24,361 nt of DNA from Bryobacteraceae bacterium. Its GTDB lineage: Bacteria > Acidobacteriota > Terriglobia > Bryobacterales > Bryobacteraceae. Location of the stretch: NCBI GenBank assembly GCA_035708545.1, contig DASSSG010000213.1:1-24361 (forward strand). Direction: 5' to 3'. The stretch's first letter is position 1, and the number at the start of each line of letters is the position of its first letter. The notes below the pieces were generated by a model, which searched no databases, was not told the origin of the DNA, and saw nothing but the letters and a program-made list of their open reading frames with translations. Shown one piece after another: positions 1,885-21,380 of this stretch. The translations under genes and the position numbers were made by a program.

Positions 1885-2679
1885 GTGGTGCTGGATACCG
1901 CCCTGATCTACGCAATGTGGCAGCACGCACCGTTCGCGAATCTCTGTGTGGGAGACACGGAGGTGCATCTGTGGCTGGTGCCGCTGGCCACTTCATCGGA
2001 AACCCTCGCCCTCGCGAGCGCGTTGTTATCGCTCGAGGAGACGGCTCGCGCGCGGCGGTTCCACCTCGAGAAGGACCGGGCCGCGTGTATTGCCAGCCGC
2101 GCCGTTCTGCGCACGCTGATCGCCCAATACACCGGGATGCCTCCACGTGCAATCGTCTTTGAATACGCGTCGACCGGGAAACCACGACTCGCCGGCGGCC
2201 ACGATCTGCACTTCAATGTCGCCCATTCCGGCGCTCTGGCCCTGTACGGATTTGCGCGTCACTACGAACTGGGAGTCGATATCGAATACGTGCGTGAAAC
2301 GCCCGACCTGGCGGCGATAGCGGACCGGTTTCTCAATGCCGGCGAACGCGGTGATCTCGCAAGCATCTCCGGTCCAGCCAAAACACGGGCATTCTATGAT
2401 TGCTGGACGCGGAAGGAAGCCCTGCTGAAGGCGACCGGGGCCGGCATCTCCGCCGGGCTCGACACCTTTCGTGTCTCCCTTCTGCCGTTTGAGCCGGCGC
2501 GGGTGCTCGCCGGAGACGGCGAATTCGCGCCGGACAGGTGGTCGCTGGTTGATGCGGTGCTCGGCGGCAATTACCGAGGTGCGCTGGCCATTCGCGGATC
2601 GGGATGGCATGTGCGGGCGTGCGCCTGTCGTGACGCGGCGCTCTGCTTGACGCGGGGTATCGCTGAGGATGAGCAGTGA
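1885..2679 (+). CDS. Sfp-type 4'-phosphopantetheinyl transferase
   Basis: Motifs VHLW, R..L..Y, GKP, HFNVAHSG, GVDIE and WTRKEALLKATGAG. The start could be GTG 1885 or ATG 1915. The stop overlaps the next start (GTGA). Confidence 0.93.
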   Translation: MVLDTALIYAMWQHAPFANLCVGDTEVHLWLVPLATSSETLALASALLSLEETARARRFHLEKDRAACIASRAVLRTLIAQYTGMPPRAIVFEYASTGKPRLAGGHDLHFNVAHSGALALYGFARHYELGVDIEYVRETPDLAAIADRFLNAGERGDLASISGPAKTRAFYDCWTRKEALLKATGAGISAGLDTFRVSLLPFEPARVLAGDGEFAPDRWSLVDAVLGGNYRGALAIRGSGWHVRACACRDAALCLTRGIAEDEQ

Positions 2680-4241
2680 AGGACCGCAACCGTCGCTGCG
2701 TGTCCGCGTACCACGAAACGGCAGTCCAGATTGGGGAGACTATCCTCGACTCCGGAGGAAACGCGTTCGACGCATTCGTCGCCTCAACCGCCGCGACTTA
2801 CGTCCTCGGAGAAGGTACTACGAGTCTGGCAGGCTGCTTGGGAGCGCTCACGTACAATGCGCGTACGCGGACGGTGGAGTATCTGGACGCGGATTTCAAT
2901 GAACCCAAAACCCGAAAACGCTGGTGGCGCCGAAGCTCGCCGCCGGGCAACACCGTTCCCGTTCCCGGAGCGGTCGCGGGCCTCGAAGCGCTTTCGAGGA
3001 AGTACGGGCGGTTCAGCTTCGCCGACGCGCTCGCTCCCGCAATCGCGCTGGCGCGCACCGGGTTTCACATCACCAAGTATTACGCTTCAGTGATCAGCGC
3101 GCGCTCACCAGTGCTCCAGCGTAGTGAATACGGCCGCCGGACGTTCTTTCCGGAGGAACGTCCGCTGCGCGAGGGCGATGTCCTCCGCCAGCCCGACGTC
3201 GCTGACTTTCTGACTAATATTGCGCGCTACGGCGCGGAGTACATGTACAACGGCCCGTGGGGCCGGCAGTTCGTCGAAACAGTTCGGGAGCGCGGCGGAT
3301 TGATAAAAAACGATGATCTGGCCGCATACACCGTCGAATGGCGGCAGCCGTGGACGATATCGTACCGGGAGCACGAGGTGTATGCCTGCTCCGGCTTCAC
3401 CTTCGGGGGCCTCTGGACGCTCGTGGCGCTAAAGACGCTGGAGAATATAGCTCCCCCATTTCCGGAGCACTTCTCAACTGCGCCCCAGATGCTGGAAGTC
3501 CTGCTCCGGCTTGCTCGCCAGGTTGATTCGGAAGCGTGGCTGTTCAACTACAAACAGCTCGCGAACCGCGAATACGTTCAATCGCGCCTTGCTCCTGAGT
3601 ACGTCGCCAACATCTGGAGCAGGGTGCAGGCAAGCGGATGCGGAAATTCCACCCGGTCGGGAACCGCGCACAGCTACCACGTCATCGCCATCGACCACGA
3701 AGGGAACGCGGTTACCGGGACAAACACGATCGAATCGGCTCCGTGGGCTGATGGGATCTTCGTGCAGGGCATCCCACTGTCGAATGCGCTGAAAATCCCG
3801 TACGGGACCCGTCCGGGAAAGCGGCGGCTCAATCTGCTGTCAATGCACCTGGTCCTGCGTGACGGCGCATTGCGTTTCGCTATCGGCGCATTCGCGAGTT
3901 CGTTGATCGAAGCGTCTCTCCAGTTCCTCGTAAACCTGATCGATTATCGGCTCAGCCCGGCAGAAGCTGCTCGTCTTCCACGCTTCGGCACCATTCCATT
4001 TGAACTGAACTCCGACGGCGACATCGTCTGGTGCGACACGTCGCGGAACTGGCTCGACAAGCGAGTGAACCCCGAGGTCGTGACCACGCTCGAGAGCCGC
4101 GGTCTGTTATTTCACCAGGAGCATATCGATACGGGACTGGGCAACATCGTCGTGGTCAACGAGGATGGCACCTTGCAGTCCGCGACCACTCCCGTTCAGC
4201 AGTCCGAACCCACACGCGCCAACGTGTCGGAGAACTATTGA
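2676..4241 (+). CDS. Gamma-glutamyltransferase-fold Ntn-hydrolase, atypical (Ser nucleophile, gamma-Glu pocket residues replaced), no signal peptide
   Basis: GGT-family motifs GGNAFDAFVA, VPVPGAVAGLEAL..KYG, LAPAIALARTGF, DLAAY, H..AID.EGNAV..T.TIE, PGKR and PRF. The current stop TGA (4239-4241) lies inside the IS end. Confidence 0.85.
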   Translation: MKDRNRRCVSAYHETAVQIGETILDSGGNAFDAFVASTAATYVLGEGTTSLAGCLGALTYNARTRTVEYLDADFNEPKTRKRWWRRSSPPGNTVPVPGAVAGLEALSRKYGRFSFADALAPAIALARTGFHITKYYASVISARSPVLQRSEYGRRTFFPEERPLREGDVLRQPDVADFLTNIARYGAEYMYNGPWGRQFVETVRERGGLIKNDDLAAYTVEWRQPWTISYREHEVYACSGFTFGGLWTLVALKTLENIAPPFPEHFSTAPQMLEVLLRLARQVDSEAWLFNYKQLANREYVQSRLAPEYVANIWSRVQASGCGNSTRSGTAHSYHVIAIDHEGNAVTGTNTIESAPWADGIFVQGIPLSNALKIPYGTRPGKRRLNLLSMHLVLRDGALRFAIGAFASSLIEASLQFLVNLIDYRLSPAEAARLPRFGTIPFELNSDGDIVWCDTSRNWLDKRVNPEVVTTLESRGLLFHQEHIDTGLGNIVVVNEDGTLQSATTPVQQSEPTRANVSENY

Positions 4242-4262
4242 TCTTCGTAAAATAGGGTGACA
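4238..4262 (+). repeat. IS630 left terminal inverted repeat (25 bp)
   Basis: TTGATCTTCGTAAAATAGGGTGACA versus the reverse complement of the right end, TTGAGGTTCGGATAATACAGTGACA: 19/25 identical by manual alignment. Confidence 0.88.
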
Positions 4263-4292
4263 GATTGGACAGTGCTGTGCGAATATGTGGGT

Positions 4293-4811
4293 ATGAGCCC
4301 CCGCGCGGCGCAGAAGAGGGATTTCGATAAATTAGAGCGGCGGCGGATGGCCGCGGCTAGGTTGCTCAACCGAGGAATCAGCCAGGCAGAAGTCGCGAGG
4401 CGAGTGAAAGTAAGTCGCGAAAGCGTTCGCCGTTGGTCGAATCAGATCCGTCAGCATGGTTCCGCCGCGGCCTTGAAGAAGGCCGGCCGAGCAGGCCGAA
4501 AGCCGGGGTTAACCGCGGCCGACTTGCGGAAACTCGAAGCAATCCTGCGCGCGGGACCGGAGAAAACCGGATTCACCAACGGACTGTGGACGCTCGATCG
4601 CATCGGCGAGGTCATCCGGAACGAGTTTCGGATCGATTATCACGCCGGCCATGTTTGGTGGATCCTGCGCCGGAAGCTCGGCTGGAGTTGTCAGCGGCCG
4701 GTCGGGCGAGCTCGCGAGCGAAACGAGGCAGCGATCCGCCAGTGGAAGGAAGAAACCTGGCCCGCGCTTAAAAAAAAGCCCGGAAAGAGGGCCGGATCAT
4801 CGTCTTCGTAG
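4293..4811 (+). CDS. IS630 transposase OrfA (N-terminal HTH / winged-helix part)
   Basis: HTH SQAEVARRVKVSRESVRRW, GRKP, GLWTLDRIGEVI, WILRRKLGWSCQRP..RARERNE and W.EETWPALKKK. ATG 4293 is preferred because GTG 4257 lies inside the TIR. Confidence 0.88.
   Translation: MSPRAAQKRDFDKLERRRMAAARLLNRGISQAEVARRVKVSRESVRRWSNQIRQHGSAAALKKAGRAGRKPGLTAADLRKLEAILRAGPEKTGFTNGLWTLDRIGEVIRNEFRIDYHAGHVWWILRRKLGWSCQRPVGRARERNEAAIRQWKEETWPALKKKPGKRAGSSSS
4769..4778 (+). promoter_or_regulatory. Programmed frameshift / slippage site T-A8-G
   Basis: An A run at 4770-4777 lies at the OrfA/OrfB junction. A -1 shift joins WPALKK to KARKEGRIIVFVDESG, the usual IS630 arrangement. Confidence 0.8.
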
Positions 4812-5308
4812 ACGAGAGCGGCGTCAGTCAGCGTCCGCATCGGGTGCGTACGTGGTCGAAACGGGGCGTGACGCCGATTCTGCAGCACCAGTTCAATTGG
4901 GACAATCTGTCGGTTGCCGCCGGAATCACGCTGTGGCAGTTCTACTTCCGGATGTACGACGGAACCATGGGCAAGGAGGACGTCCTCGATTTCGTCCGCC
5001 ATCTCAACAAACAGATCACGCAGCCCATTCTGCTGATCTGGGATCGTCTTCCCGGACACCGCAGCCGACTGGTCCAGGACTATCTCGCCAGCTTGCACGG
5101 CAAGATCGAGGCGTTCTATCTGCCCGCTTACGCTCCTGAGTTGCATCCGGCCGAGTACATCTGGGCCCACCTGAAACAGCATGAACTGGCTAACTTCTGT
5201 CCACGCGACCTCTGGAGCCTGTCAGCTGAAGCGCGCTCGGCACTCACCTCCATGCAGCGTCGTCACACGATTGTTACCGCCTGCTGGAAACAGGCTTCTT
5301 TGTTCTAA
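4775..5308 (+). CDS. IS630 transposase OrfB (DDE catalytic domain), reached by -1 frameshift; fused product about 338 aa
   Basis: The -1 frame reads KARKEGRIIVFVDESG...RTWSKRGVTP, then LIWDRLPGH and YAPELHPAEYIWAHLK. These supply D, D and E. The first Asp lies upstream of the ORF-track start at 4844. Confidence 0.88.
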   Translation, partial: KARKEGRIIVFVDESGVSQRPHRVRTWSKRGVTPILQHQFNWDNLSVAAGITLWQFYFRMYDGTMGKEDVLDFVRHLNKQITQPILLIWDRLPGHRSRLVQDYLASLHGKIEAFYLPAYAPELHPAEYIWAHLKQHELANFCPRDLWSLSAEARSALTSMQRRHTIVTACWKQASLF

Positions 5309-5310
5309 CT

Positions 5311-5335
5311 TGTCACTGTATTATCCGAACCTCAA
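5311..5335 (-). repeat. IS630 right terminal inverted repeat (25 bp)
   Basis: TGTCACTGTATTATCCGAACCTCAA, complementary to the left end at 19/25 positions and followed by TA. Confidence 0.88.
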
Positions 5336-7230
5336 TAGATTTTACCGGCGCAATCGCGGGGAATCGCCAGACTGAGGTACTGGTCTCCGTCACGGGCCAT
5401 GATCCTGAGCTGCACCATGCGATCAAGCCAGGTCCTGAGTTCCGCGCCGCCAGGACCGTTGCGCTCGCAGGCGTCGCTATTCAGTGTTTCAATCGAAACG
5501 AATGCAGGATTTTCGTGACCGTTGCGCAGCATCCGCTCGATCGCGACCACCGGGCGCGTCTGGTCGCAGAACTCGTAGACTCGCTTCTCCCAGCCTTGCA
5601 ACTGTGTAGACCGCTGGACCGGATCAGGGCGCATATCGCGGATCATCAGGAGATCCTCGCTCAGCGCATCTGACACCAGGGACGCGCCGCCAGCGTGGGC
5701 CTCGCGCCAGGCGGCAACCCGGTTTTCGATCGGACCTATATAGGCAGACGTGTCCACAGTGTCGGCGTAGTCGTAATCGAAGAAATAAGCGATGTCGGAC
5801 AAATCCGACTCGGGCAGGGGATACAGATATTTGTAGATTTCCATGGGGCGGACTTTCACCATCCCCAGCGAGGCGGGATCCTGAAAGTACGGACTGAAGC
5901 GGTCCAGGCGGATCCTGCCGGTGCCCTCCGGCGGCGGCAGGTGCGCCAGGCACTCCAGCAGCGGCATCATCTCTTCGTAATCGCGAGCGCTTTCGCCGGG
6001 AAACCCGTACAGGAAATTCCAGGTCGGCCGCACGCCGAATTGCCGGCACCACTTGAGCAGCTGCACGTTTTGCAGGGGCGAAACGCCTTTACGCATCAGG
6101 TTGAGAATGTGTTGATGGAGACTCTCGATGCCGGGCTGAATCCATGTGATGCCGGCATCCGCGAGCAGACGGACCTGTTCCTTTGTCAGATTCGCCTTCA
6201 CCTCATAGAAGAAGGTCAGATCCAGCTTTCGGCGCTTCAGCTCGGGCAGAAGATCGCGGAAGTACTGCATGTCAATGATGTTGTCTACTGTCGCGATCTC
6301 ATGCAGCGGGTAATGCGAAACCAGATGATCGAGTTCGGCCAGTACCCGGTCCTTGCTCTTCGCACGATAATGCATCGTCTCCCGGTTCAGGCCGCAAAAT
6401 GTGCAGTGATGTTTGGCGCCCCACCAGCAGCCGCGCGAGGTTTCCATCTGGAGCTTGAGCGGAATTTCCCAGGGAATCGAGCTGTGCTCAAGCTGCAGGA
6501 AGTAATCATGGAATTCCGGAAAGGACAGCGCATCCAGATCCTCGACGGCCCGCGGTGGTGCCGCGAAGACGCTGCCGTTTCCGTTACGGTAAATCAACCC
6601 GGGAATATCGTCCACCGGCCGGCGATGAAGGATGCGGTCCACAAACTCCGGAAAACTTTGGTCCGACTCGCCGGAGAACACGTAGTCCAGAAACGGGAAG
6701 CAGCGGTGCAGTCCGAGGCCCATGCGGTCCTCGCAATTGGCTCCGCCCATGACGGTTGTCTTGGCCGGGTACCACTGTTTCACCGCGCAGGCCAGAGCGA
6801 GCGACGGCAGATTCTGCTCGAACGTGGACGTGAAGCCCACGATTGAATACCGATCCCATGCCGTGGACGCGAGGCAGTAGTCCAGGAACGGTTCCACGAA
6901 CCGCCGCAGCCACACCACGGAATTCAGAACCTCCGGCTCGACAAACCGCTCGCCGCGCAGATAGCGAATGTAGGCGTTGCCGTCCGGTATCTGACCGCGA
7001 AACATATGGTCAGCGAATACCCATTCGCCGATGAAAAGGGTGTGGCTCATATATTCGCTGACCCATTCGTAATACGGCGCGCCGACCCAGTCCGCGAACT
7101 CGATATTGAAGTTCCGGATGTCGCATGGGATTCCGCGCCGGCGTACCGCGGACTGCAGGTTGCCGATTCCGATCGGAGGGCGATCCACGCCGGCGAACGG
7201 CATGTTGATCAGCAGGACGCCACCACTCAT
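5332..7230 (-). CDS. Cobalamin-dependent (class B) radical SAM enzyme, RiPP-maturation type (TIGR03975 / PoyB-PoyC-like), probable C-methyltransferase
   Basis: N-terminal B12-binding region (MPFA..RPPIGIG; VGFTSTFEQN...VMGGANC). ETSRGCWWGAKHHCTFCGLN gives CX7CX2C (Cys codons 6427-29, 6403-05, 6394-96). Also DNIIDM, FYEVKANL, IQPGIESL, WNFLYGFPGE, RLDRFSPYF and C-terminal YLSLA. RBS GGAGGT lies 6 nt before the ATG. The stop lies in the IS right end. Confidence 0.92.
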   Translation of the reverse strand: MSGGVLLINMPFAGVDRPPIGIGNLQSAVRRRGIPCDIRNFNIEFADWVGAPYYEWVSEYMSHTLFIGEWVFADHMFRGQIPDGNAYIRYLRGERFVEPEVLNSVVWLRRFVEPFLDYCLASTAWDRYSIVGFTSTFEQNLPSLALACAVKQWYPAKTTVMGGANCEDRMGLGLHRCFPFLDYVFSGESDQSFPEFVDRILHRRPVDDIPGLIYRNGNGSVFAAPPRAVEDLDALSFPEFHDYFLQLEHSSIPWEIPLKLQMETSRGCWWGAKHHCTFCGLNRETMHYRAKSKDRVLAELDHLVSHYPLHEIATVDNIIDMQYFRDLLPELKRRKLDLTFFYEVKANLTKEQVRLLADAGITWIQPGIESLHQHILNLMRKGVSPLQNVQLLKWCRQFGVRPTWNFLYGFPGESARDYEEMMPLLECLAHLPPPEGTGRIRLDRFSPYFQDPASLGMVKVRPMEIYKYLYPLPESDLSDIAYFFDYDYADTVDTSAYIGPIENRVAAWREAHAGGASLVSDALSEDLLMIRDMRPDPVQRSTQLQGWEKRVYEFCDQTRPVVAIERMLRNGHENPAFVSIETLNSDACERNGPGGAELRTWLDRMVQLRIMARDGDQYLSLAIPRDCAGKIY

Positions 7231-7263
7231 GACACAACCTCCAAAACTGCAGGTCGGAGCCGC

Positions 7264-7821
7264 TCAGCCGGACAGCGCCTCCAGCCTGACCTGGATTTTC
7301 TCGAGGCGGTTGATGGTAGGCTGCACACTCGGCAGCAATCGTTCGAGCTCAGCCCGATAAGAATCGAACGCGCGCTCGCTGGCTCCGGCAACGCGGGTCG
7401 CGGTTGAAACGTCAGACTTGCCGAATCGACGCACATAGGCCTGAATTTCCTGGCCCTGCGCTATCAGTCGGATATCTTCCTGCACAGAATCAGCAAGCTG
7501 CTTACCTTTCTCCAGCAGATCCCGCACATACTGCCTGCACTCGGGAAGGCAGGCTTCCCGTTCGTGCTCGTCGATGGTTTCGAGATAACGCAAATAAGCC
7601 TCGATGTCAGTCGGCATCCGTTCGAGAAATTGCAGCACCGCGGAGTGCTCTCCAAGCGCATGCGTGTATTTGGACAGCAGCGGTCCTTTAATCGAGGAAT
7701 CGGCGTGAATATTCGCCGGCGCGGACACCGCACCTGACGACATCGACGCGAAGTAATCTGAGTAACCCTGAAGATACGCGCACCATATCCGTTCCTCCGG
7801 AGACTGCGACGAACCGATCAT
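7264..7821 (-). CDS. Hypothetical protein, 185 aa, apparently alpha-helical
   Basis: Its ATG overlaps the TGA of the upstream NRPS (ATGA), and it fills the gap before the radical SAM gene. No family motif recognised. Confidence 0.7.
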   Translation of the reverse strand: MIGSSQSPEERIWCAYLQGYSDYFASMSSGAVSAPANIHADSSIKGPLLSKYTHALGEHSAVLQFLERMPTDIEAYLRYLETIDEHEREACLPECRQYVRDLLEKGKQLADSVQEDIRLIAQGQEIQAYVRRFGKSDVSTATRVAGASERAFDSYRAELERLLPSVQPTINRLEKIQVRLEALSG

Positions 7822-10800
7822 TGCTTCATCTCCTGCGCATCATCCTGAAGCAACCGTCTCAGCAGGACGTCCACGTCCGCATCGGAAAGCTGATTCAGAT
7901 CCGGGGTCTGTTCTGTGATGTGAGGAATCGACCCCGCAGGGCTGGCGCCTTGAGACGTGTGCTCGTCGATTGCCCTGGCGAGTGCGTCTAGTCTCGGGTT
8001 TTCGAACAAAGTGCGGAGAGGTAAGTCGACTCGGAACACGTCACGTATGCGAGAAACGACCTGCGTTGCCAGTAGCGAGTGGCCTCCGAGCTCGAAGAAG
8101 TTGTCATTGGCACCGATCGTTTGAAGCTTGAGAACGCCGGCCCAGATTCCCGCCAGATTCACCTCTGTGGCTGTGCTCACCGGCACGGGCGGAGCGCCGT
8201 CGACCGCACGATTTGTGCCGGGACGGGGAAGCGCTCTGCGATCCAGTTTCCCGCTCGCTGTGAGTGGAAACGTGTCCAGCTGCACGATTGCGGAGGGAAC
8301 CATATACTCCGGCAGCTTCTCCGCCACGAATATGCGAAGCTCGGCCGGGGATGCGGCGGCACCCTCGTGCATCAGCACGTACGCGACCAGCCGCTGGGCT
8401 CCGGGCGCATCTTCAAGCACCGTGCATACTGCCTGGCGCACGGAGGGGTGGTGAGTCAGGGCCGTCTCCACTTCGCCCAACTCGATCCGGTACCCGCGTA
8501 GTTTAACCTGAGTATCGATCCGGCCCAGGAACTCAATGTTCCCATCCGGGAGATACCGTGCCCTGTCGCCGGTCTTGTACAAACGCGCGCCGGGAGACTC
8601 GCTGAAGGGATCGGAGGTAAATCGCTCGGCTGTAAGTTCTGGCTGATTTCTGTAGCCGCGGGCCACACAGTCTCCGCCGATGTGCAACTCGCCTGGAACA
8701 CCGACGGGTGCCGGACTGCCGAAGCGGTCGAGGATATAAAGCCGAGCGTTGGCGATGGGACGGCCGACAGGTGGCACGCCCGGCCACTGACGGGGTGCTC
8801 CCGTCAAACGGAATTCGCTGACGACGTGTGCTTCCGTCGGCCCGTATTGATTCGACAGCACGCACCCGTCGAGTCTCTCGAACCAGAGAACGATCTCCGG
8901 CGTAACCAGCAACTGCTCGCCGGCAGTGATGACCTCGCGCAAAGCCGTCGGGACGATCCCGCTGCCCGCTCCCAGCTCGGCCAGCTGGCGCAGCGCTACG
9001 AATGGAAGGAACAGGCGCTCAACGCCTGAGTCCGCGATCAGGCGGAGGAGTTCCCTGGCATCCCGCCGCTGCTCCTCGGAGACAAGGACGAGAGTGCCCC
9101 CGGAACAGAGGCAAGTGAAGATCTCCTGGAATGAGACGTCGAAGCTCAGCGGCGAAAACTGGAGTGTGCGCGCGGGCGCGGCGAGGGCCGTTGTCCGAAG
9201 CTGCCAGGTGATCAGATTGACCAGTGCCCGGTGCGGCATTTCAACGCCTTTTGGCACTCCTGTCGAACCCGACGTGTACATTACGTATGCCAGGCTGTTG
9301 GAGTCGGCGCCGCTTTCCACGTCTTCGGCGGATTCGCGGGCAATCTCCGGCCAGTCGCGATCCAGACAGACCACCCGCGCCTCGGACGCCGGCAGCCGCT
9401 TCGTCAGCTCTTCCTGCGTCAGCAGAACGGTAGCGCGAGAATCAGAAAGCATGAACGCGAGCCGCTCATTTGGATACGCCGCATCGAGGGGCACGTACGC
9501 CGCGCGCGCCTTGAGGATGCCGAGCAGGCCCACAATGGCCTCAAACGAGCGTTCCGCACACAGCGCGACCAAAGGCCCCGGCCCGGCGCCCAGCCTGTGC
9601 AGATAACGCGCCACCTGGTTTGCCCGCCGGCTGAGTTCCCGATACGTCAACTCCCGGCCGCCGAACCGCAATGCCACGGCATTCGGTGTGCGCTCGACCT
9701 GTGCTTCAAACAACTGCTCTACAGTACTGGTTCGCGGATACTCGGCGGCAGTCGTATTCCAGTCCATCAGAACCTGCCGCCGTTCCAATTCCGTCAGCAG
9801 CGGCAGTTCCGAGATGCGCCGGTCCGGATGCTCGACTATGGCTTCAAGCAGTGTCTGGAAGTGACCGACCATGCGCGCGATGGTGGCTCGATCAAAAAGA
9901 TCGGTGCTGTACTCGATTGACCCCTCGATCGCTCCGGAGCCCTCGAACAGATGGAAACCGAGATCCACAATCGATGTGCCTTTGGCTACATCGAACGATC
10001 CCGGTTCGGGCGCCGGGCGGCCGGCGCAGGCGTCTGCTCCCGTTCCTGTGCTGAACACCTGGAACAGAACCTGAAACAACGGATTCCGGCTCAGGTTGCG
10101 TTCCGGCTGAAGCTCCTGAACCAGCCTCTCGAACGGCAGGTCCTGATGAGCATAGGCTCCAAGTGCGACTTCGCGGACGCGCTGCAGCGCATCACGGAAG
10201 GTCCGGTTGCCCGACAGATTGACTCGCATCACCAACGTATTCACGAAAAATCCGATCAGGCCTTCGATCTCGCGGCGGGTGCGATTTGCCATCGGCGAAC
10301 CGACTACGATGTCGTTCTGACCTGAATACCGGTGCAGCAGGATCTGAAATGCGGTGAGGAGCGTGATGAAGAGGGTCGTACCTTCCCGGCGGGCTAGTGC
10401 TCGCACCGCGTCGGACAGCCGTTCCGGCAAGCGGATGTTAAGGTGGCTGCCGACGTAGCGTTCAACCGGCGGGCGCGGTCTGTCGGTCGGAAGCTCCAGG
10501 ACCGGCAAGCCGTCCAGTTGCCGCTTCCAATACCGGAGCTGCTCCTCCAATACCTCACCTTGCAGCCTCTGCCGCTGCCAGACGGCGAAGTCGGCGTACT
10601 GGATTGGCAGCTCGGGCAGAGGCGAAGGCTTTCCCTCCGCGAAAGCGGCGTAAAGCGCCATCAGCTCGCGGAAGAGCACACCCATGGACCAGCCGTCCGC
10701 AACGATGTGGTGAATGGTCAGAAGGAACAGGTGATCGTCGTCGCTAAGCCGTACGACACCGGCCCGCACCAGAGGGCCCTTGGCCAGGTCGAACGGCTGA

Positions 10801-11258
10801 ATGGCTTGCGTGGTCGCCAGGCGCAGCGCTTCCTCATCTCGCCCGCCGGGCGGAAGATGCGTGAGGTCGGTCACGCTCAGCGGTATCGCGAGTGCGGGCG
10901 CGATAATCTGTACCGGCTCGCCGTTCACCGTTCCGAAGGTCGTGCGCAGGGCTTCGTGGCGGCGCACAATTTCGTTGAGACTGCGTTCGAGCGCACGAAC
11001 ATTGAGCCACGCTTTCCAGTGAAATGCGTTGTCGACGTTGTAGAACGCGCTCCCGCCCGCGAGCTGGTCCAGAAACCAAAGGCGCTCCTGAGCAAACGAC
11101 AGCGGCGGCGCGGTCGAGGGCTCACGGCGCGGGATCGGCGCGAGCGCCGAGTCCCGGCCCTCCTGCTTCAGCAGCCTTGAGAGCAGATCGCGCTTGCCCT
11201 GAGGCAGGGCCGCGATCCGTTGCGCGGCCGCCGTGCGGATCTTCGTGTTGGGGGTCAT
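7818..11258 (-). CDS. NRPS module C-A-T, proline-like specificity, no TE
   Basis: C: PLSFAQERLWFL and HHIVADGWS. A: YTSGSTGVPKG, FDVSFQE, NQYGPTE, YKTGD, RIELGEVE and SGKLDR. T: NFFELGGHSL. Manually extracted pocket code DVQFIAQVVK. ATGA overlaps at both ends. Confidence 0.95.
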   Translation of the reverse strand: MTPNTKIRTAAAQRIAALPQGKRDLLSRLLKQEGRDSALAPIPRREPSTAPPLSFAQERLWFLDQLAGGSAFYNVDNAFHWKAWLNVRALERSLNEIVRRHEALRTTFGTVNGEPVQIIAPALAIPLSVTDLTHLPPGGRDEEALRLATTQAIQPFDLAKGPLVRAGVVRLSDDDHLFLLTIHHIVADGWSMGVLFRELMALYAAFAEGKPSPLPELPIQYADFAVWQRQRLQGEVLEEQLRYWKRQLDGLPVLELPTDRPRPPVERYVGSHLNIRLPERLSDAVRALARREGTTLFITLLTAFQILLHRYSGQNDIVVGSPMANRTRREIEGLIGFFVNTLVMRVNLSGNRTFRDALQRVREVALGAYAHQDLPFERLVQELQPERNLSRNPLFQVLFQVFSTGTGADACAGRPAPEPGSFDVAKGTSIVDLGFHLFEGSGAIEGSIEYSTDLFDRATIARMVGHFQTLLEAIVEHPDRRISELPLLTELERRQVLMDWNTTAAEYPRTSTVEQLFEAQVERTPNAVALRFGGRELTYRELSRRANQVARYLHRLGAGPGPLVALCAERSFEAIVGLLGILKARAAYVPLDAAYPNERLAFMLSDSRATVLLTQEELTKRLPASEARVVCLDRDWPEIARESAEDVESGADSNSLAYVMYTSGSTGVPKGVEMPHRALVNLITWQLRTTALAAPARTLQFSPLSFDVSFQEIFTCLCSGGTLVLVSEEQRRDARELLRLIADSGVERLFLPFVALRQLAELGAGSGIVPTALREVITAGEQLLVTPEIVLWFERLDGCVLSNQYGPTEAHVVSEFRLTGAPRQWPGVPPVGRPIANARLYILDRFGSPAPVGVPGELHIGGDCVARGYRNQPELTAERFTSDPFSESPGARLYKTGDRARYLPDGNIEFLGRIDTQVKLRGYRIELGEVETALTHHPSVRQAVCTVLEDAPGAQRLVAYVLMHEGAAASPAELRIFVAEKLPEYMVPSAIVQLDTFPLTASGKLDRRALPRPGTNRAVDGAPPVPVSTATEVNLAGIWAGVLKLQTIGANDNFFELGGHSLLATQVVSRIRDVFRVDLPLRTLFENPRLDALARAIDEHTSQGASPAGSIPHITEQTPDLNQLSDADVDVLLRRLLQDDAQEMKQ

Positions 11259-12181
11259 TTCGGTTTGCTAAGCCGCAGAATGCGATAGCTCAGAACGCCG
11301 GATTGCATGTCGCGATAAACCTGCGAGCCGGGCATGCTGAGGAACTCGCCAACCACTTCGAACCGGTTCCGGTCTCCACCGAATGCCTGGAAACGGGCGG
11401 GCGAAGACTCGTCACACGCCAGGAGCACGTTATGCGTGATGTCCCGGTCCACTTCCACCTGGAGCCCTGTAGCGCGCAGCCAAACGAACCACCTGGCGGA
11501 GAAATCGGCCGGCATGCAGTCGCTGTACAGAAACTTGCCGCCGGGCTTCAGCAGCCGGAAGACTTCCTTATAAAAAGCCTCGACGTCCAGGTAGTGATTT
11601 GAGGATTCCAGGTTGGTCACAACGTCGAAGTACCCGCTGCGGAACGGCAGTTGCTCGGCGTCGGCCTGTACGAACGATACGTTCGCATACTTGTGCGTCC
11701 GCTGGCAGTACGCGATCGGCCCGAAGGACAGATCAGCTCCGACGAAGCTTCGTGGCTTGAAGTATTCCTCTGCGACGAAGACGACGGCGCCGCGGCCGCA
11801 ACCGACATCCAGTATGTTCAGCCCGTCGATCGGGCAATCGCCGATGAGTTCAAGCACCAGACGGACGGCGTTCTTGCCGAGCAACCGTTCGGGTAATCGG
11901 ACCACCGAGTACTCCGGGCTGCCGTCCGGCACATAACCCAGATTCATGAAACACGCGTATCGTCCGACGGGCGTCGAATCGAGTTGCCGGCTGGCGGTGT
12001 CATAGAGGCGCTGGGTGACCGCGCGCAATTCGGCTGGAGAACGCGGATCTCCGAATTCGAGGGGCTCGGGCGCCTCGGCGGCCACCGGCGAAGCCGACCG
12101 GCGCGCCACCAGCCGCTCGAAGCACTCGCGTTTCTCGGGAGTGAGTTTAGCCAGGCGCGACAATACATCGTGCGACATCAT
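11255..12181 (-). CDS. Stand-alone class I SAM-dependent methyltransferase (probable O-methyltransferase, phthiotriol/fatty-acid O-MT-like) with N-terminal docking-like helix
   Basis: FMNLGY, ILDVGCGRG, GADLS, FVQADAEQLPF, FDVVTNLESSNHY and LLKPGG. ATGA overlaps with the PKS and the NRPS. Confidence 0.88.
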   Translation of the reverse strand: MMSHDVLSRLAKLTPEKRECFERLVARRSASPVAAEAPEPLEFGDPRSPAELRAVTQRLYDTASRQLDSTPVGRYACFMNLGYVPDGSPEYSVVRLPERLLGKNAVRLVLELIGDCPIDGLNILDVGCGRGAVVFVAEEYFKPRSFVGADLSFGPIAYCQRTHKYANVSFVQADAEQLPFRSGYFDVVTNLESSNHYLDVEAFYKEVFRLLKPGGKFLYSDCMPADFSARWFVWLRATGLQVEVDRDITHNVLLACDESSPARFQAFGGDRNRFEVVGEFLSMPGSQVYRDMQSGVLSYRILRLSKPK

Positions 12182-15100
12182 CCCTGTGACTCCTGATGTT
12201 TCGCGAGTAACGCTTTGACTTCGCTCTCAGGAAGCCCCTCCACGAAATCGAGCAGCTCTGCGATCCTGCTCTCTTCCTCCGGCGCGGCCGCGGTCTCAAT
12301 CGCAGCAGCGACCGCCGCGACCGTCGGGGCCTGAAAGAGCTGATGTACCGGTAAGTCCACGCCGAACTTCTCACGGAATCGCGAAATCATCTGGATGGCA
12401 AGAAGGGAGTGGCCGCCGAGATCGAAAAAGTTATCGTGAATGCCGACGGGCTCGATGCCGAGCAGATCCTGCCATACTTCAGCGACCACCCGTTCACGAT
12501 CGTCGCGAGGAGCAAAGTACTCGTTGACTAATGTGGGCCGCGGATGCCGAGGAACGCCGGCGGGTGGTTTCGCGTCGAGGGTGTACTCGCTCGGCTCCGC
12601 CCACAGCCACTGGTTCATGCGGGCATCGGGATCTCCGGTGGCCACGACCACTTGCCCCGGCAGGTGCTCCAGAACGCGTCGAAAAGCCGCGACCGCTTCG
12701 TCCGCCGAGAGCTCATCAGAGTCCCCGGAGCGACGAGCACTGTGGGGAAACACCCACTCGTCCCAGTTCACGCTTGTCCACGGCGCCGTGCCGGCAGAGT
12801 TGTGGCGAGCCGCGAAGGCATCCAGGAAGTTGTTCGCTGCCGAATACGCTGCAAATCCGGCTCCCACCTGAAACGACGCGAACGAGGAGAGCAGAACGCA
12901 GAAGTCGACTCCCGGTTCGAGAAGCGCCTCGAGGATCATCGCTCCCCGCGCCTTCGAGCCGAAGTGTTCCTCACAGCTGTCTCGGCTGAGCTGCGTCAAT
13001 GGGACGAACGCTTCGGGCGAGATCTGTCCAGCCGCATGGATCACGCCGTGCAGTTCGCCAAAACGCTCATAGATCGCGGCCAGCGCCGCCCCCATCTGGT
13101 CTGCGTCGGAGACGTCGGCGGTCAACACTAACACCGTCCCGCCGAGCTGCTCGATCTGCAGCAGCCGCCGGATCTTGCTGCTGACGTCGTCCTCGCCATG
13201 CAGTGCGAGCCAGGGCTCCCATTCATGCCGCTCGGGAAATGCCGAGCGGCCACTCAGGACAACCCTGGCTTGCACGGAACGCGCAAGCTCCTCGGCAAGG
13301 GCGAGTCCGATCTGTCCCAACCCGCCGGTGATCCAATATACGCCGTTCAGCCGCAGTGTCCTGGGTCTCTCGGCCGGGGCAGCAAGCGGGAGCTGCTCGA
13401 AACCCTGGACGAGGCGGGTTTCGCCGCGGTATGCGACCACCGTGTCCCGTTCCGCTGAGGTCAACTCCGCAATGATACTGTTGGCCACGCCGTCGTCCAG
13501 GGCGACGTCGATGCTGCAACACCGGATTGCAGGATATTCGTACGCCGCCACGCGGCAGACCCCCAGCAGAGTCGCTTTGCCGGGATGCAGCCGCTCGTCT
13601 TCGAGCAGTGCGTGGAGATGGTTTGACACGATTCCGACCTGAATGTGATTCAGGAGATTTTGTCTTTCGAGCGCCTGTACCAGAGCAACCACACTGTAGA
13701 AGCCGAACTCCTGGCACTCGTCAAAGGACGTCTCCTCGGCGGCCACAGTCCAGAGATGTGCGACAACGTCGGGCAGGCGGTCAGTGATCCGAAGTTCGTC
13801 GAGCAGGCTCTCATAATCTTTGCGGTCGGCGGGGCGCACGGCAAAGGCTTCGCTGCCCAGGCGGGCGTACTCGGTGCCAGGCATCACGACGATATTGGTG
13901 TGTCCCAGTTGCTCGAGTTGTCTGACCATAGCCGGCCCGACCCCGCAAGCATCGGCGAGGATCAGCCAACGCAGCGGCCGGCCGGCATTGTCGAGACGGT
14001 CGTTTGCGAGTGGGGAGACCTGCCATGAGGGTATGTAGAGCCAATCGGCCACATCCCGCCCGGGGCCGACTTCGGCCGCATCCGCCTCTGCGGCTTGCTC
14101 CGGCACGCCGATCCAATAGGTCTGCCGTTCGTACGGATATGTCGGCAGCTCGATCCGTCGGCGAGGCTCGCGGGAATGAACGGCCGGCCAGTCAGGCGTG
14201 ATGCCATTCAGCCACAGTCGGCCAAGCGCTTCGAACAATACTGCGGATTCCGCCTGTCTGTCTTGTGCCCCCGGCATGGACGTGAGCACTGTCTGACCTG
14301 ACCAACTGTCCTGCTGCTGCCGCAAGAGCATGCCGAGTGTGCGTCCGGGTCCGACTTCAAGGAACACGCGCTCGCTATCCGTCAGCAGTTCGCGCAGTCC
14401 ATCGGAGAAACGGACCGTTTGGCGAACGTGCCATCCCCAGTAGCTCGGGTCGCGCGCCTCATCGGGCGTGATCCATGTGCCCGTGACATTCGAAATATAC
14501 GGGATCTGCGGTGCGTTGAGACTGATGTTCTGCACCCGTTCGGTGAATTGCCAGACGATCGGCTCCATCATCGCAGAGTGGAACGCGTGCGATGTGTGCA
14601 GCCGCTTTGCCGCGATGCCCGCAGCAGCGAGCTGCCCGGCTGCCGCATCGATCGCGCCTGCAGGCCCGGAGAGCACAATCAGCGAGGGCGCGTTCACGGC
14701 CGCCACACTGATGCCGTTCGTGAGCAACGGCTGCGCTTCCGCCTCCGAGAGCGATACCGCCAGCATCGCCCCTGTGGGCATAGTGTCCATCAGCCGCCCG
14801 CGCGCCGCCACGAGGGCCACAGCGTCCTCAATGGAGAGCACGCCCGCCAGACACGCGGCCACCCACTCACCAATGCTGTGGCCTGTCATCGCCGCCGGAT
14901 AGATTCCCCACGACATCCACAGCGCGGCCAACGCGTACTCGATCGTAAATAGTGCCGGTTGTGCAATGGCTGTGCGCTGAAGCCTCTCATCCCACAGCTG
15001 CGGCGGGGCAGCGGAGGACGAACCGGCGTCGGCGGGGTACAGCAGTTCGCGCAGGTCCACGCGCAAATGCGGACGGAACAAGTCGGCGCAGGCATCGAGA

Positions 15101-21376: not shown

Positions 21377-21380
21377 AACT

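What the first reader, a model, noticed from the sequence alone, without database searches (positions are those of the whole stretch)
5332..7230. RiPP-type B12 radical SAM methylase closing an NRPS-PKS operon, with no precursor peptide in view
Seen: B12-binding domain, the CX7CX2C motif in CWWGAKHHCTFC, and a position as last gene of the NRPS-PKS operon. I found no short precursor-like ORF nearby. Known: this family includes the polytheonamide enzymes PoyB/PoyC and the bottromycin methylases, which C-methylate unactivated carbons (Val, Pro, Phe and others) on ribosomal peptides. Inference: it has been recruited to methylate a non-ribosomal, possibly carrier-tethered substrate such as the Pro-like or Leu-derived residue.
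Basis: partly seen in the sequence, partly recalled or inferred. Interest (0 to 1): 0.7.

Follow-up and report, generated by a model that had tools for sequence, protein, structure and literature searches.

The report
RiPP-type radical SAM pair in NRPS operon
The last gene of this NRPS-PKS operon is a genuine PoyC-family B12 radical SAM enzyme, but the overlooked 185-residue gene just before it belongs to a small-protein family that always accompanies related enzymes, so the enzyme probably kept a ribosomally made partner or substrate.

Summary
ORF 5332-7230(-) is a full-length TIGR03975 enzyme (682 bits, cut-off 282) with the CX7CX2C motif, a TokK/TsrM/CysS-like cobalamin radical SAM fold and an RRE-like C-terminal domain. 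It is the last, co-directional gene of the NRPS-PKS operon.

The premise "no precursor in view" fails. The 185-aa ORF 7264-7821(-), here called P0002, overlaps the NRPS stop codon by 4 nt. It belongs to a rare family of small proteins ("A"). In all five other places with readable context, an A gene lies at most 3 kb upstream of a related B12 radical SAM gene, which is followed by an S8 peptidase. Its motif AYLQGYSDY occurs only in A proteins and in the repeat proteins ("B") beside them.

The enzyme nests among RiPP-context relatives, next to one with an S8 peptidase and inside a clade with YcaO clusters. It is far from the one NRPS-linked member I sampled. The likeliest reading is a RiPP-type partner-plus-enzyme cassette captured by an NRPS-PKS operon, with P0002 as cognate substrate or partner (0.45). 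Tailoring of the non-ribosomal product, as shown for DscE in 2025, remains a serious rival (0.33). Other windows of this scan reported NRPS-linked TIGR03975 enzymes before. The embedded partner gene is the new part.

The parts
5332..7230 (-). P0001, a 632-aa class B (cobalamin) radical SAM enzyme of family TIGR03975
   Evidence: TIGR03975 682 bits. The AF2 model matches TokK, TsrM, CysS and OxsB. It is 97% identical to the orthologue on a sister contig with the same synteny.
6394..6429 (-). CX7CX2C [4Fe-4S]/SAM cluster motif CWWGAKHHCTFC (residues 268-279)
   Evidence: Translation. C268, C276 and C279 are invariant in 26 homologues. PoyC is described as having a Cx7Cx2C motif (PMC11285071).
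5371..5685 (-). C-terminal RRE-like domain (about residues 516-620; three strands, three helices, then a hairpin)
   Evidence: Secondary structure of the models. The best VIA-align matches are leader-binding RRE proteins: TbiB1 with leader (5v1u, Z 8.6, 79 aligned residues), lasso B1 (6jx3, Z 7.8) and the RRE of TigE (8vpo, Z 7.3). Foldseek alone gave only weak winged-helix hits.
5458..5514 (-). Lineage-specific insertion of about 19 residues between helices 2 and 3 of the RRE-like domain
   Evidence: Present only in P0001 and its 97% orthologue among 18 aligned C-terminal domains. pLDDT is below 50.
7238..7242 (-). Shine-Dalgarno GGAGG, 7 nt before the radical SAM ATG, inside the 33-nt gap after P0002
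   Evidence: Sequence. No terminator-like site lies in the gap.
7264..7821 (-). P0002, 185 aa, a member of the 'A' family of small helical proteins that accompany this radical SAM clade; probable cognate ribosomal partner or substrate
   Evidence: The ATGA overlap with the NRPS stop codon is seen in the coordinates. The coding signal is normal. Homologues P0128-P0138. An HMM of the family hits only genes upstream of TIGR03975 enzymes. Contexts.
7753..7779 (-). Motif AYLQGYSDY (P0002 residues 15-23), the hallmark of the A proteins and of the repeat proteins (B) of related clusters
   Evidence: The pattern [AST]Y.Q[GA]..[DGA][YF] occurs only in A/B proteins and P0002 among 2.45 million residues of six-frame ORFs. 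It occurs once in the whole own genome. The first 26 residues are identical in the 87%-identical orthologue.
7818..11258 (-). Last NRPS module in the window (C-A-T) with a C-terminal docking-like tail and no TE
   Evidence: Pfam, translation.
11255..24359 (-). Upstream part of the operon: stand-alone SAM methyltransferase, PKS KS-AT-KR-ACP, NRPS C-A(MT)-T, and an NRPS A(MT,MT)-T that is open at its 5' end
   Evidence: Pfam.
4238..5335 (+). IS630-type element (HTH ORF and DDE_3 ORF) inserted at a TA between the convergent GGT-like and radical SAM genes
   Evidence: Pfam. TA duplication at 4236-4237 and 5336-5337; excision restores overlapping stops in CTAG. The sister orthologue ends ...SKI, without the added Tyr.
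1885..4241 (+). Convergent pair: Sfp-type PPTase (1885-2679) and GGT-like Ntn hydrolase (2676-4241), probably part of the same gene cluster
   Evidence: Pfam and NCBIfam.

Best explanation
The radical SAM gene is one half of a two-gene RiPP-type cassette that has been welded onto the 3' end of an NRPS-PKS operon. Shown: P0001 is an intact TIGR03975 cobalamin radical SAM enzyme with an RRE-like C-terminal domain. Shown: the gene before it, P0002, belongs to a rare small-protein family (A) that in other bacteria opens clusters of the form A, repeat protein B, sometimes a SPASM radical SAM, a TIGR03975 radical SAM and an S8 peptidase. Shown: P0002 carries the same AYxQGxxDY motif as those A and B proteins. 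Inferred: P0001 binds P0002, possibly through the RRE-like domain. It would then use the usual class B chemistry. The [4Fe-4S] cluster reductively cleaves SAM to a 5'-deoxyadenosyl radical, the radical abstracts a hydrogen from an unactivated carbon, and methylcobalamin donates the methyl group. The target would be one or more residues of P0002, perhaps in or next to the motif. Inferred: because the pair is translationally coupled to the last NRPS gene, the modified P0002 and the NRPS-PKS product are made together and probably act or mature together. How they relate is unknown.
For: Family identity and fold. RRE-like domain: (TbiB1 with its leader, Z 8.6, stands first of 48,161 chains). P0002 is a real gene: its codon log-likelihood of 0.23 per codon is like that of neighbouring genes, and it stays open and 87% identical on the sister contig. 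A-family homology. Linkage: all five other A genes with readable context lie upstream, on the same strand and within 3 kb, of a B12 radical SAM gene of about 630 aa that is followed by an S8 peptidase. These are L097, L016, L018, L099 and a 4.0-Mb genome. Motif specificity: there is no background hit in 2.45 million residues, and one hit in the own genome, which is P0002. The first 26 residues of P0002, motif included, are invariant while the rest has 24 changes. Tree: P0001 is sister to P0007, which sits beside an S8 peptidase (SH-aLRT 99). It lies inside a clade of 47 rows that also holds the A/B/S8-linked enzymes and YcaO-linked ones. Among 80 species-representative loci and 37 phylum loci with TIGR03975 genes, only one (L129) had an NRPS condensation domain within about 10 kb, none had KS or AT hits, and L129 lies on a distant branch. 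Operon integration: ATGA overlap, own Shine-Dalgarno, no terminator.
Against: No chemistry was measured, so P0002 may be an accessory rather than a substrate. The window and the assembled genome (77% complete) lack the B repeat protein and a linked S8 peptidase. The cassette is therefore incomplete, and nothing obvious would release a peptide from P0002. P0002 has a 63-residue C-terminal extension that other A proteins lack, and a different middle region. The nearest relatives of P0001 at 55-58% identity with long contigs sit in YcaO clusters without an A gene. A tightly coupled operon usually means one pathway, which favours a role in making the NRPS-PKS product. DscE shows that such enzymes can methylate non-ribosomal peptides. 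The A family is tiny, about ten sequences, so the linkage rests on few independent lineages.
Confidence: 0.45

Rival explanations
1. DscE-like tailoring. P0001 C-methylates an unactivated carbon of the NRPS-PKS product, of a carrier-tethered intermediate such as the Pro-like residue of the last module, or of a free building block. P0002 would be an adaptor or an activating 'leader in trans' that the RRE-dependent enzyme still needs.
For: The radical SAM is the last gene of a tightly coupled NRPS-PKS operon, and this synteny is kept on a sister contig. DscE, a cobalamin radical SAM methyltransferase in an NRPS cluster, methylates discodermin D at Val5 in vitro (PMC12858407). CysS acts on a pantetheinylated substrate, going by the PDB entry titles. 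Another Acidobacteriota genome has an NRPS ending in TE followed directly by a TIGR03975 gene (L129). The B protein and the S8 peptidase of the native cassette are missing here. The enzyme carries a lineage-specific insertion in its RRE-like domain.
Against: P0001 does not group with the NRPS-linked member sampled; the NRPS label needs at least two origins on the tree. It keeps a family-specific ribosomal partner with the conserved motif. A pure small-molecule tailoring enzyme would not be expected to need such a partner, and L129 has no such gene. The DscE sequence could not be compared.
Confidence: 0.33
2. A physical hybrid. The chain on the last T domain, which has no TE, is passed to or built onto P0002, or P0002 serves as a scaffold peptide, and the radical SAM modifies the conjugate.
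For: There is no TE, reductase or terminal C domain in the window, and only one weak thioesterase-family hit in the assembly (27.6 bits). The last NRPS ends in a docking-like tail with no partner in view. The P0002 start overlaps the NRPS stop. A GGT-like Ntn hydrolase and a PPTase converge on the operon. Carrier-peptide logic involving cobalamin radical SAM enzymes appears in the title and abstract of PMC9303977 (I did not read the paper).
Against: No ligase, PEARL-type or transferase gene is present. The genome is 77% complete, so a TE or further modules may simply be unassembled. No sequence feature of P0002 points to an acceptor site.
Confidence: 0.08
3. A passenger with no role in this pathway. 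The cassette landed here by chance and either decays or serves a precursor encoded elsewhere, such as the Cys-rich 116-aa peptide next to the genome's second TIGR03975 gene.
For: An IS630 element abuts the gene. P0002 was not found in 60 related genomes. A canonical set of precursor, TIGR03975 enzyme, ThiF-like protein and YcaO exists on contigs C45 and C170.
Against: Both genes are intact. The enzyme is 97% identical between two strains, and all family-invariant residues are kept. The IS adds only one Tyr and lies outside the coding body. The other precursor has its own enzyme, which is only 40-52% identical to P0001. The translational coupling argues for selection as part of the operon.
Confidence: 0.1

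Closest known systems
PoyB/PoyC, cobalamin radical SAM C-methyltransferases of polytheonamide (a proteusin RiPP); the NCBIfam family name for TIGR03975 is 'RiPP maturation radical SAM C-methyltransferase'
   Same: P0001 scores above the TIGR03975 cut-off. It has the Cx7Cx2C motif described for PoyC. It combines a cobalamin radical SAM fold with a C-terminal domain. That PoyB/PoyC are themselves members of TIGR03975 is recalled from the literature, not tested here.
   Different: No NHLP or Nif11 precursor is found in the window or the genome. The neighbour is an A-family protein and the operon is NRPS-PKS.
DscE, the cobalamin radical SAM methyltransferase of the discodermin NRPS cluster in 'Candidatus Entotheonella' (PMC12858407, 2025)
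   Same: A RiPP-like B12 radical SAM gene inside a non-ribosomal peptide cluster. DscE methylates Val to tert-Leu on the released peptide.
   Different: Here a family-specific ribosomal partner gene sits between the NRPS and the enzyme, the assembly line shows no TE, and the enzyme's nearest relatives are RiPP-context enzymes. Whether DscE belongs to TIGR03975 or to this clade could not be checked.
Undescribed clusters A, B, sometimes SPASM radical SAM, TIGR03975 radical SAM, S8 peptidase (L097, L016 Geobacter MAG, L018 Nitrospinaceae MAG, L099)
   Same: An A-family gene upstream of the enzyme on the same strand; the AYxQGxxDY motif; the same 47-row clade of enzymes.
   Different: The window lacks the B repeat protein, the SPASM enzyme and the S8 peptidase. 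P0002 has an extra 63-residue C-terminal extension. The cassette is fused to an NRPS-PKS operon. I found no paper on these clusters.
TIGR03975 enzymes in YcaO/ThiF/nitroreductase (TOMM-type) clusters
   Same: These are the closest sequence relatives with long contigs, at 55-58% identity (P0013, P0015, P0017). The own genome has a second such cluster with a 116-aa Cys-rich precursor.
   Different: There are no YcaO, ThiF-like or dehydrogenase genes in the window, and no A-family gene in those clusters.
CysS (cystobactamid), a class B radical SAM methylase that acts on a carrier-linked substrate
   Same: Cobalamin radical SAM fold (Foldseek E 2e-14 to 9n1d), in an NRPS pathway.
   Different: Sequence similarity is only remote (E 5e-5), so it is a different subfamily.

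Membership tests
NCBIfam TIGR03975 (rSAM_ocin_1) | Full-length HMM score above the curated cut-off (281.85 bits) | tested here: met
   682.1 bits over profile positions 1-606 of 606.
NCBIfam TIGR03975 (rSAM_ocin_1) | CX7CX2C cluster-binding motif instead of CX3CX2C | tested here: met
   CWWGAKHHCTFC; the Cys are invariant in 26 homologues. PoyC is described with this motif.
Class B (cobalamin-dependent) radical SAM enzymes | N-terminal cobalamin-binding Rossmann domain followed by a radical SAM barrel | tested here: met
   The model matches TokK, TsrM, CysS and OxsB over 520-590 columns, E 2e-16 to 1e-13. Pfam PF02310 itself is not detected.
RiPP maturases with a recognition element | RRE (PqqD-like: three strands then three helices) domain | tested here: inconclusive
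   VIA-align places the leader-bound RRE proteins TbiB1 (Z 8.6) and lasso B1 (Z 7.8) first and TigE fourth. Z 8.6 is only just above the usual noise ceiling, and Foldseek gave no significant match.
Proteusin-type systems (PoyB/C context) | Adjacent NHLP or Nif11 leader precursor | tested here: not met
   There is no TIGR03793 hit and only sub-threshold TIGR03798 hits in the own genome, which is 77% complete.
A/B/radical SAM/S8 clusters (undescribed) | A-family protein with the AYxQGxxDY motif upstream of the enzyme on the same strand | tested here: met
   P0002 scores E 1e-53 against the family HMM (it is itself one of the eight sequences the HMM was built from) and carries AYLQGYSDY.
A/B/radical SAM/S8 clusters (undescribed) | B repeat protein and S8 peptidase in the cluster | tested here: not met
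   There is no B-family hit in the own genome. The only S8-like hits are on unrelated contigs.
NRPS-tailoring B12 radical SAM methyltransferases (DscE-like) | Encoded inside an NRPS cluster | tested here: met
NRPS-tailoring B12 radical SAM methyltransferases (DscE-like) | Descent shared with other NRPS-linked members | tested here: inconclusive
   P0001 does not group with the only NRPS-linked member sampled, L129. DscE and the NRPS-linked branch reported in earlier scan notes were not available for the tree.
NRPS-tailoring B12 radical SAM methyltransferases (DscE-like) | Methylates the non-ribosomal peptide | not testable with these tools
   This needs an enzyme assay or a knockout.

The most novel reading that the evidence does not exclude
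A RiPP enzyme did not lose its ribosomal partner when it joined an assembly line. P0002 may act as a trans-acting leader or adaptor that occupies the RRE-like domain and so lets the B12 radical SAM methylate a carrier-tethered or released NRPS-PKS intermediate. Alternatively, the TE-less assembly line hands its chain to P0002. Either would be a working RiPP/NRPS hybrid in one operon.
Probability: 0.2. Interest if true: 0.85.

Novelty: new variant of a known kind. Interest (0 to 1): 0.6.

Why it matters
B12 radical SAM C-methylases install tert-butyl and other hard-to-make groups on unactivated carbons. Until 2025 the PoyC family was thought to serve only ribosomal peptides. This locus appears to be an independent capture of such an enzyme by an NRPS-PKS operon, and the enzyme brought along a ribosomally made partner. 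That gives a concrete test of how leader- or RRE-dependent RiPP enzymes are re-used in assembly-line pathways: as plain tailoring enzymes, as enzymes activated by a leader in trans, or as parts of true hybrids. It also shows that "no precursor nearby" is an unsafe basis for calling such enzymes NRPS tailoring enzymes. As a by-product, it exposes an undescribed RiPP-like cluster family with repeated AYYQGMADYEA units and long (PPxR)n tracts.

Tried and rejected
- **Complex prediction:** Complex prediction with P0001 (A1) and P0002 (A2) gave no verdict (score 0.00). I do not use it either way.
- **C-terminal domain, Foldseek:** the 'pdb' search gave only weak winged-helix hits, E >= 0.27.
- **Pfam B12-binding:** not detected in P0001.
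- **P0002 in family libraries:** Pfam and NCBIfam gave nothing.
- **Protein atlas for P0002:** only generic helical look-alikes.
- **P0002 against neighbours of the YcaO-type relative L007:** no similarity.
- **Short ORFs upstream of three YcaO-type or short-contig relatives:** none was convincing.
- **NHLP and Nif11 leader searches in the own genome:** negative.
- **C-terminal extension of P0002 against own-genome ORFs:** nothing.
- **P0002 against the B proteins directly:** no hit. The link is the short motif only.
- **Recent duplication of the genome's other TIGR03975 gene:** rejected, since the two are only 40-52% identical.
- **IS630 truncating the operon:** rejected, since excision restores overlapping stop codons.
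- **Literature search for the A/B cluster type:** nothing found.
- **Radical SAM in the aetokthonostatin cluster paper:** no mention.
- **Thioesterase search in the genome:** one weak hit only.
Full report
**The gene.** ORF 5332-7230 on the minus strand is open and encodes 632 residues. It scores 682.1 bits against NCBIfam TIGR03975, whose cut-off is 281.85, over the whole profile. All other B12 radical SAM families score below 85 bits. The motif CWWGAKHHCTFC is CX7CX2C, and its three cysteines are invariant among 26 homologues. A review describes the same unusual motif for PoyC (PMC11285071).

Pfam sees only the radical SAM core. An AlphaFold model built on 26 sequences has a mean pLDDT of 87. 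It matches the solved cobalamin radical SAM enzymes TokK, TsrM, CysS and OxsB over 520-590 columns, with E-values from 2e-16 to 1e-13. The B12 domain is supported at fold level rather than by a Pfam hit.

**The operon.** From 24359 down to 5332 every gene is on the minus strand. The genes are, in order:

- an NRPS module A(MT,MT)-T, open at its 5' end
- an NRPS module C-A(MT)-T
- a PKS module KS-AT-KR-ACP
- a stand-alone SAM methyltransferase
- an NRPS module C-A-T with a docking-like tail
- a 185-aa ORF, P0002
- the radical SAM gene

Neighbouring genes overlap by 4-8 nt or are 4 nt apart. The P0002 ATG overlaps the NRPS TGA. The radical SAM gene follows P0002 after 33 nt that hold a GGAGG and no terminator-like site.

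Downstream lies an IS630-type element, bracketed by TA at 4236-4237 and 5336-5337. Removing it restores GAG AAC TAG on the plus strand and AAA ATC TAG on the minus strand. The radical SAM gene and a convergent GGT-like gene therefore once shared overlapping stop codons. The insertion adds a single Tyr. The orthologue on a sister contig ends ...SKI without it. That sister contig (ENA, 29.4 kb) has the same order NRPS, PKS, MT, NRPS, 185-aa ORF, radical SAM. Its enzyme is 97% identical and its 185-aa protein 87% identical.

No TE is present in the window. The assembly, which is 77% complete, gives only one weak thioesterase hit. Contig C843 carries a FAAL-like loading region followed by a C domain that runs off the contig end, and it may be the head of the same line.

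**The overlooked gene.** P0002 has a normal coding signal. Its codon log-likelihood is 0.23 per codon, against 0.23-0.35 for the clearly real genes of the window. A word-based search found only the sister orthologue. An exhaustive HMMER search then found small proteins of 90-179 residues with E-values from 5e-7 to 3e-4.

These proteins align over an N-terminal element (ER..AY.QAI..YE.YYQQQ), a variable Tyr/Ser-rich middle and a conserved helical C-terminal part (EWKEYLQ.LLE..KQL..SIEESI). I call this family A. One member, P0131, opens a cluster on L097 with this gene order:

- the A protein
- a 236-aa protein
- a SPASM radical SAM
- a TIGR03975 enzyme (673 bits, 44% identical to P0001)
- an S8 peptidase

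An HMM of family A, run against all ORFs of about 97 fetched loci, hit only four further places:

- L097
- L096
- a gene 2-3 kb upstream of the TIGR03975 gene in a Nitrospinaceae MAG (L018, E 1e-17)
- a gene 2-3 kb upstream of the TIGR03975 gene in a Geobacter MAG (L016, E 9e-10)

In both MAGs an S8 peptidase follows the enzyme. A profile search added two more members, again in the order A, unknown protein, sometimes a SPASM enzyme, a B12 radical SAM of 635-638 aa and an S8 peptidase. So all five A genes with readable context, plus the window and its sister contig, sit at most 3 kb upstream of such an enzyme on the same strand.

**The motif.** The unknown protein that follows A in those clusters is a repeat protein, here called B. 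It has three to seven copies of (L)SPEEEAYYQGMADYEA(S)L, followed by a long (PPxR)n or (TRPx)n tract. The pattern [AST]Y.Q[GA]..[DGA][YF] occurs only in A and B proteins and in P0002 among 2.45 million residues of six-frame ORFs from all loci. In P0002 it reads AYLQGYSDY, at residues 15-23. In the whole own genome it occurs once, in P0002. The first 26 residues of P0002 are identical in the sister orthologue, while the remaining 159 carry 24 changes.

The own genome has no B protein and no linked S8 peptidase. P0002 was not found in 60 related genomes.

**Where the enzyme comes from.** Relatives at 55-58% identity with long contigs lie in clusters of radical SAM, a roughly 300-aa protein, ThiF-like, YcaO and nitroreductase genes. 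P0007, at 60% identity, lies beside an S8 peptidase.

In a maximum-likelihood tree of 122 sequences, and again in one of 163, P0001 and its orthologue are sister to P0007 with SH-aLRT 99. This group lies inside a 30-row clade that also holds the YcaO-linked enzymes. The A/B/S8-linked enzymes form a 100%-supported group inside the same 47-row clade.

I searched 80 species-representative loci, and none had a condensation, KS or AT domain within 10 kb; sixteen had YcaO. Of 300 Acidobacteriota genomes, 25 carry the family. Among 37 regions fetched from them, only L129 has an NRPS, which ends in A-T-TE 100 nt before the radical SAM gene. That enzyme sits on a long, distant branch, so the NRPS label needs at least two origins.

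Earlier notes of this scan report a large NRPS-linked branch in other genomes. As far as I sampled, P0001 is not part of it. I could not add DscE or PoyB/C themselves to the tree.

**The C-terminal domain.** Residues of about 516-620 form three strands, three helices and a hairpin. Foldseek gave only weak winged-helix matches. An exhaustive VIA-align search ranked leader-bound RRE proteins at the top: TbiB1 with its leader (Z 8.6, rmsd 2.9, 79 residues), lasso B1 with its leader (Z 7.8) and the RRE of the radical SAM enzyme TigE (Z 7.3). These alignments start at the first strand. This is moderate support for a peptide-binding recognition element. P0001 and its orthologue alone carry an insertion of about 19 residues between helices 2 and 3.

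**The second copy.** The genome has another TIGR03975 gene, split over contigs C45 and C170 and 40-52% identical to P0001. It is preceded by a 116-aa ORF with a Cys- and Gly-rich end. It is followed by a ThiF/SagC-like gene and a YcaO gene. A RiPP precursor therefore exists elsewhere in the genome, but it has its own enzyme.

**Interpretation.** The data show that the radical SAM gene and P0002 form a recurrent pair. They also show that the pair has been captured by an NRPS-PKS operon independently of the other NRPS-linked member I sampled.

I consider it most likely (0.45) that P0002 is the enzyme's cognate ribosomal substrate or partner and is methylated by the usual class B mechanism. The recurrence of the motif as multiple tandem units in B suggests that it is, or lies next to, the modified site.

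The tight operon, the missing B protein and peptidase, the TE-less assembly line and the DscE precedent (PMC12858407) keep a tailoring role on the non-ribosomal product well alive (0.33). In that case P0002 could be an adaptor or a leader acting in trans. A physical hybrid (0.08) and a passenger (0.10) are less likely. The complex prediction gave no verdict and is not used.

**Novelty.** A RiPP-family B12 radical SAM enzyme in an NRPS cluster has been known since 2025, and this scan has noted it in other genomes. What is new here is the retained family-specific ribosomal partner, the apparently independent origin of the linkage, and the undescribed A/B/radical SAM/S8 cluster type. I found no paper on that cluster type.

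Noticed in passing
L097:318-6728; L016:6900-13445; L018:7716-13421; L099:9001-15269: An apparently undescribed RiPP-like cluster type. It has a small A protein, a repeat protein B with 3-7 copies of SPEEEAYYQGMADYEASL and a long (PPxR)n or (TRPx)n tract, sometimes a SPASM radical SAM, a TIGR03975 B12 radical SAM and an S8 peptidase. It is seen in Geobacter and Nitrospinaceae MAGs and two other assemblies.
   Followed up: partly
window 4238-5335: An IS630-type element is inserted at a TA inside the overlapping stop codons (CTAG) of the convergent GGT-like and radical SAM genes. Both genes gain one Tyr and a new TGA from the IS ends. The sister strain lacks the insertion.
   Followed up: yes
G000 contigs C45 (L015:932-1282, minus strand) and C170 (L014): A second TIGR03975 gene is split over two contig ends. 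Upstream lies a 116-aa precursor-like ORF that ends ...CECFECQCGPCACVQGGGGGFGGGFGGFGF. Downstream lie ThiF/SagC-like and YcaO genes, which makes a canonical TOMM-type cluster.
   Followed up: partly
window 5458-5514: An insertion of about 19 residues (PAFVSIETLNSDACERNGPGG) in the RRE-like domain, found only in this enzyme and its 97% orthologue. It is predicted to be disordered.
   Followed up: partly
L129:4-10906: An Acidobacteriota genome (G093) has a giant NRPS of at least 2973 aa that ends in A-T-TE. A TIGR03975 gene follows after 100 nt, with no A-like gene between. This is a separate, distant lineage of NRPS linkage.
   Followed up: partly
G000 contig C843 (L138:2-2560, minus strand): A FAAL-like loading region (AMP-binding plus DIP2-like domain) is followed by a C domain that runs off the contig, directly after a pyruvate kinase gene. 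It may be the start of the window's assembly line.
   Followed up: partly
window 7818-7970: The last NRPS module ends in a T domain plus an acidic docking-like tail (…LSDADVDVLLRRLL…). There is no TE, reductase or terminal C domain in the window, and no clear TE elsewhere in the 77%-complete assembly.
   Followed up: partly
window 1885-4241: An Sfp-type PPTase and a GGT-like Ntn hydrolase overlap by 4 nt and converge on the NRPS operon. The hydrolase could process a product or prodrug.
   Followed up: no
window 7264-7728: The automatic gene call for P0002 starts at an internal GTG (154 aa). This cuts off the conserved motif. The family alignment supports the upstream ATG that overlaps the NRPS stop codon.
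   Followed up: yes
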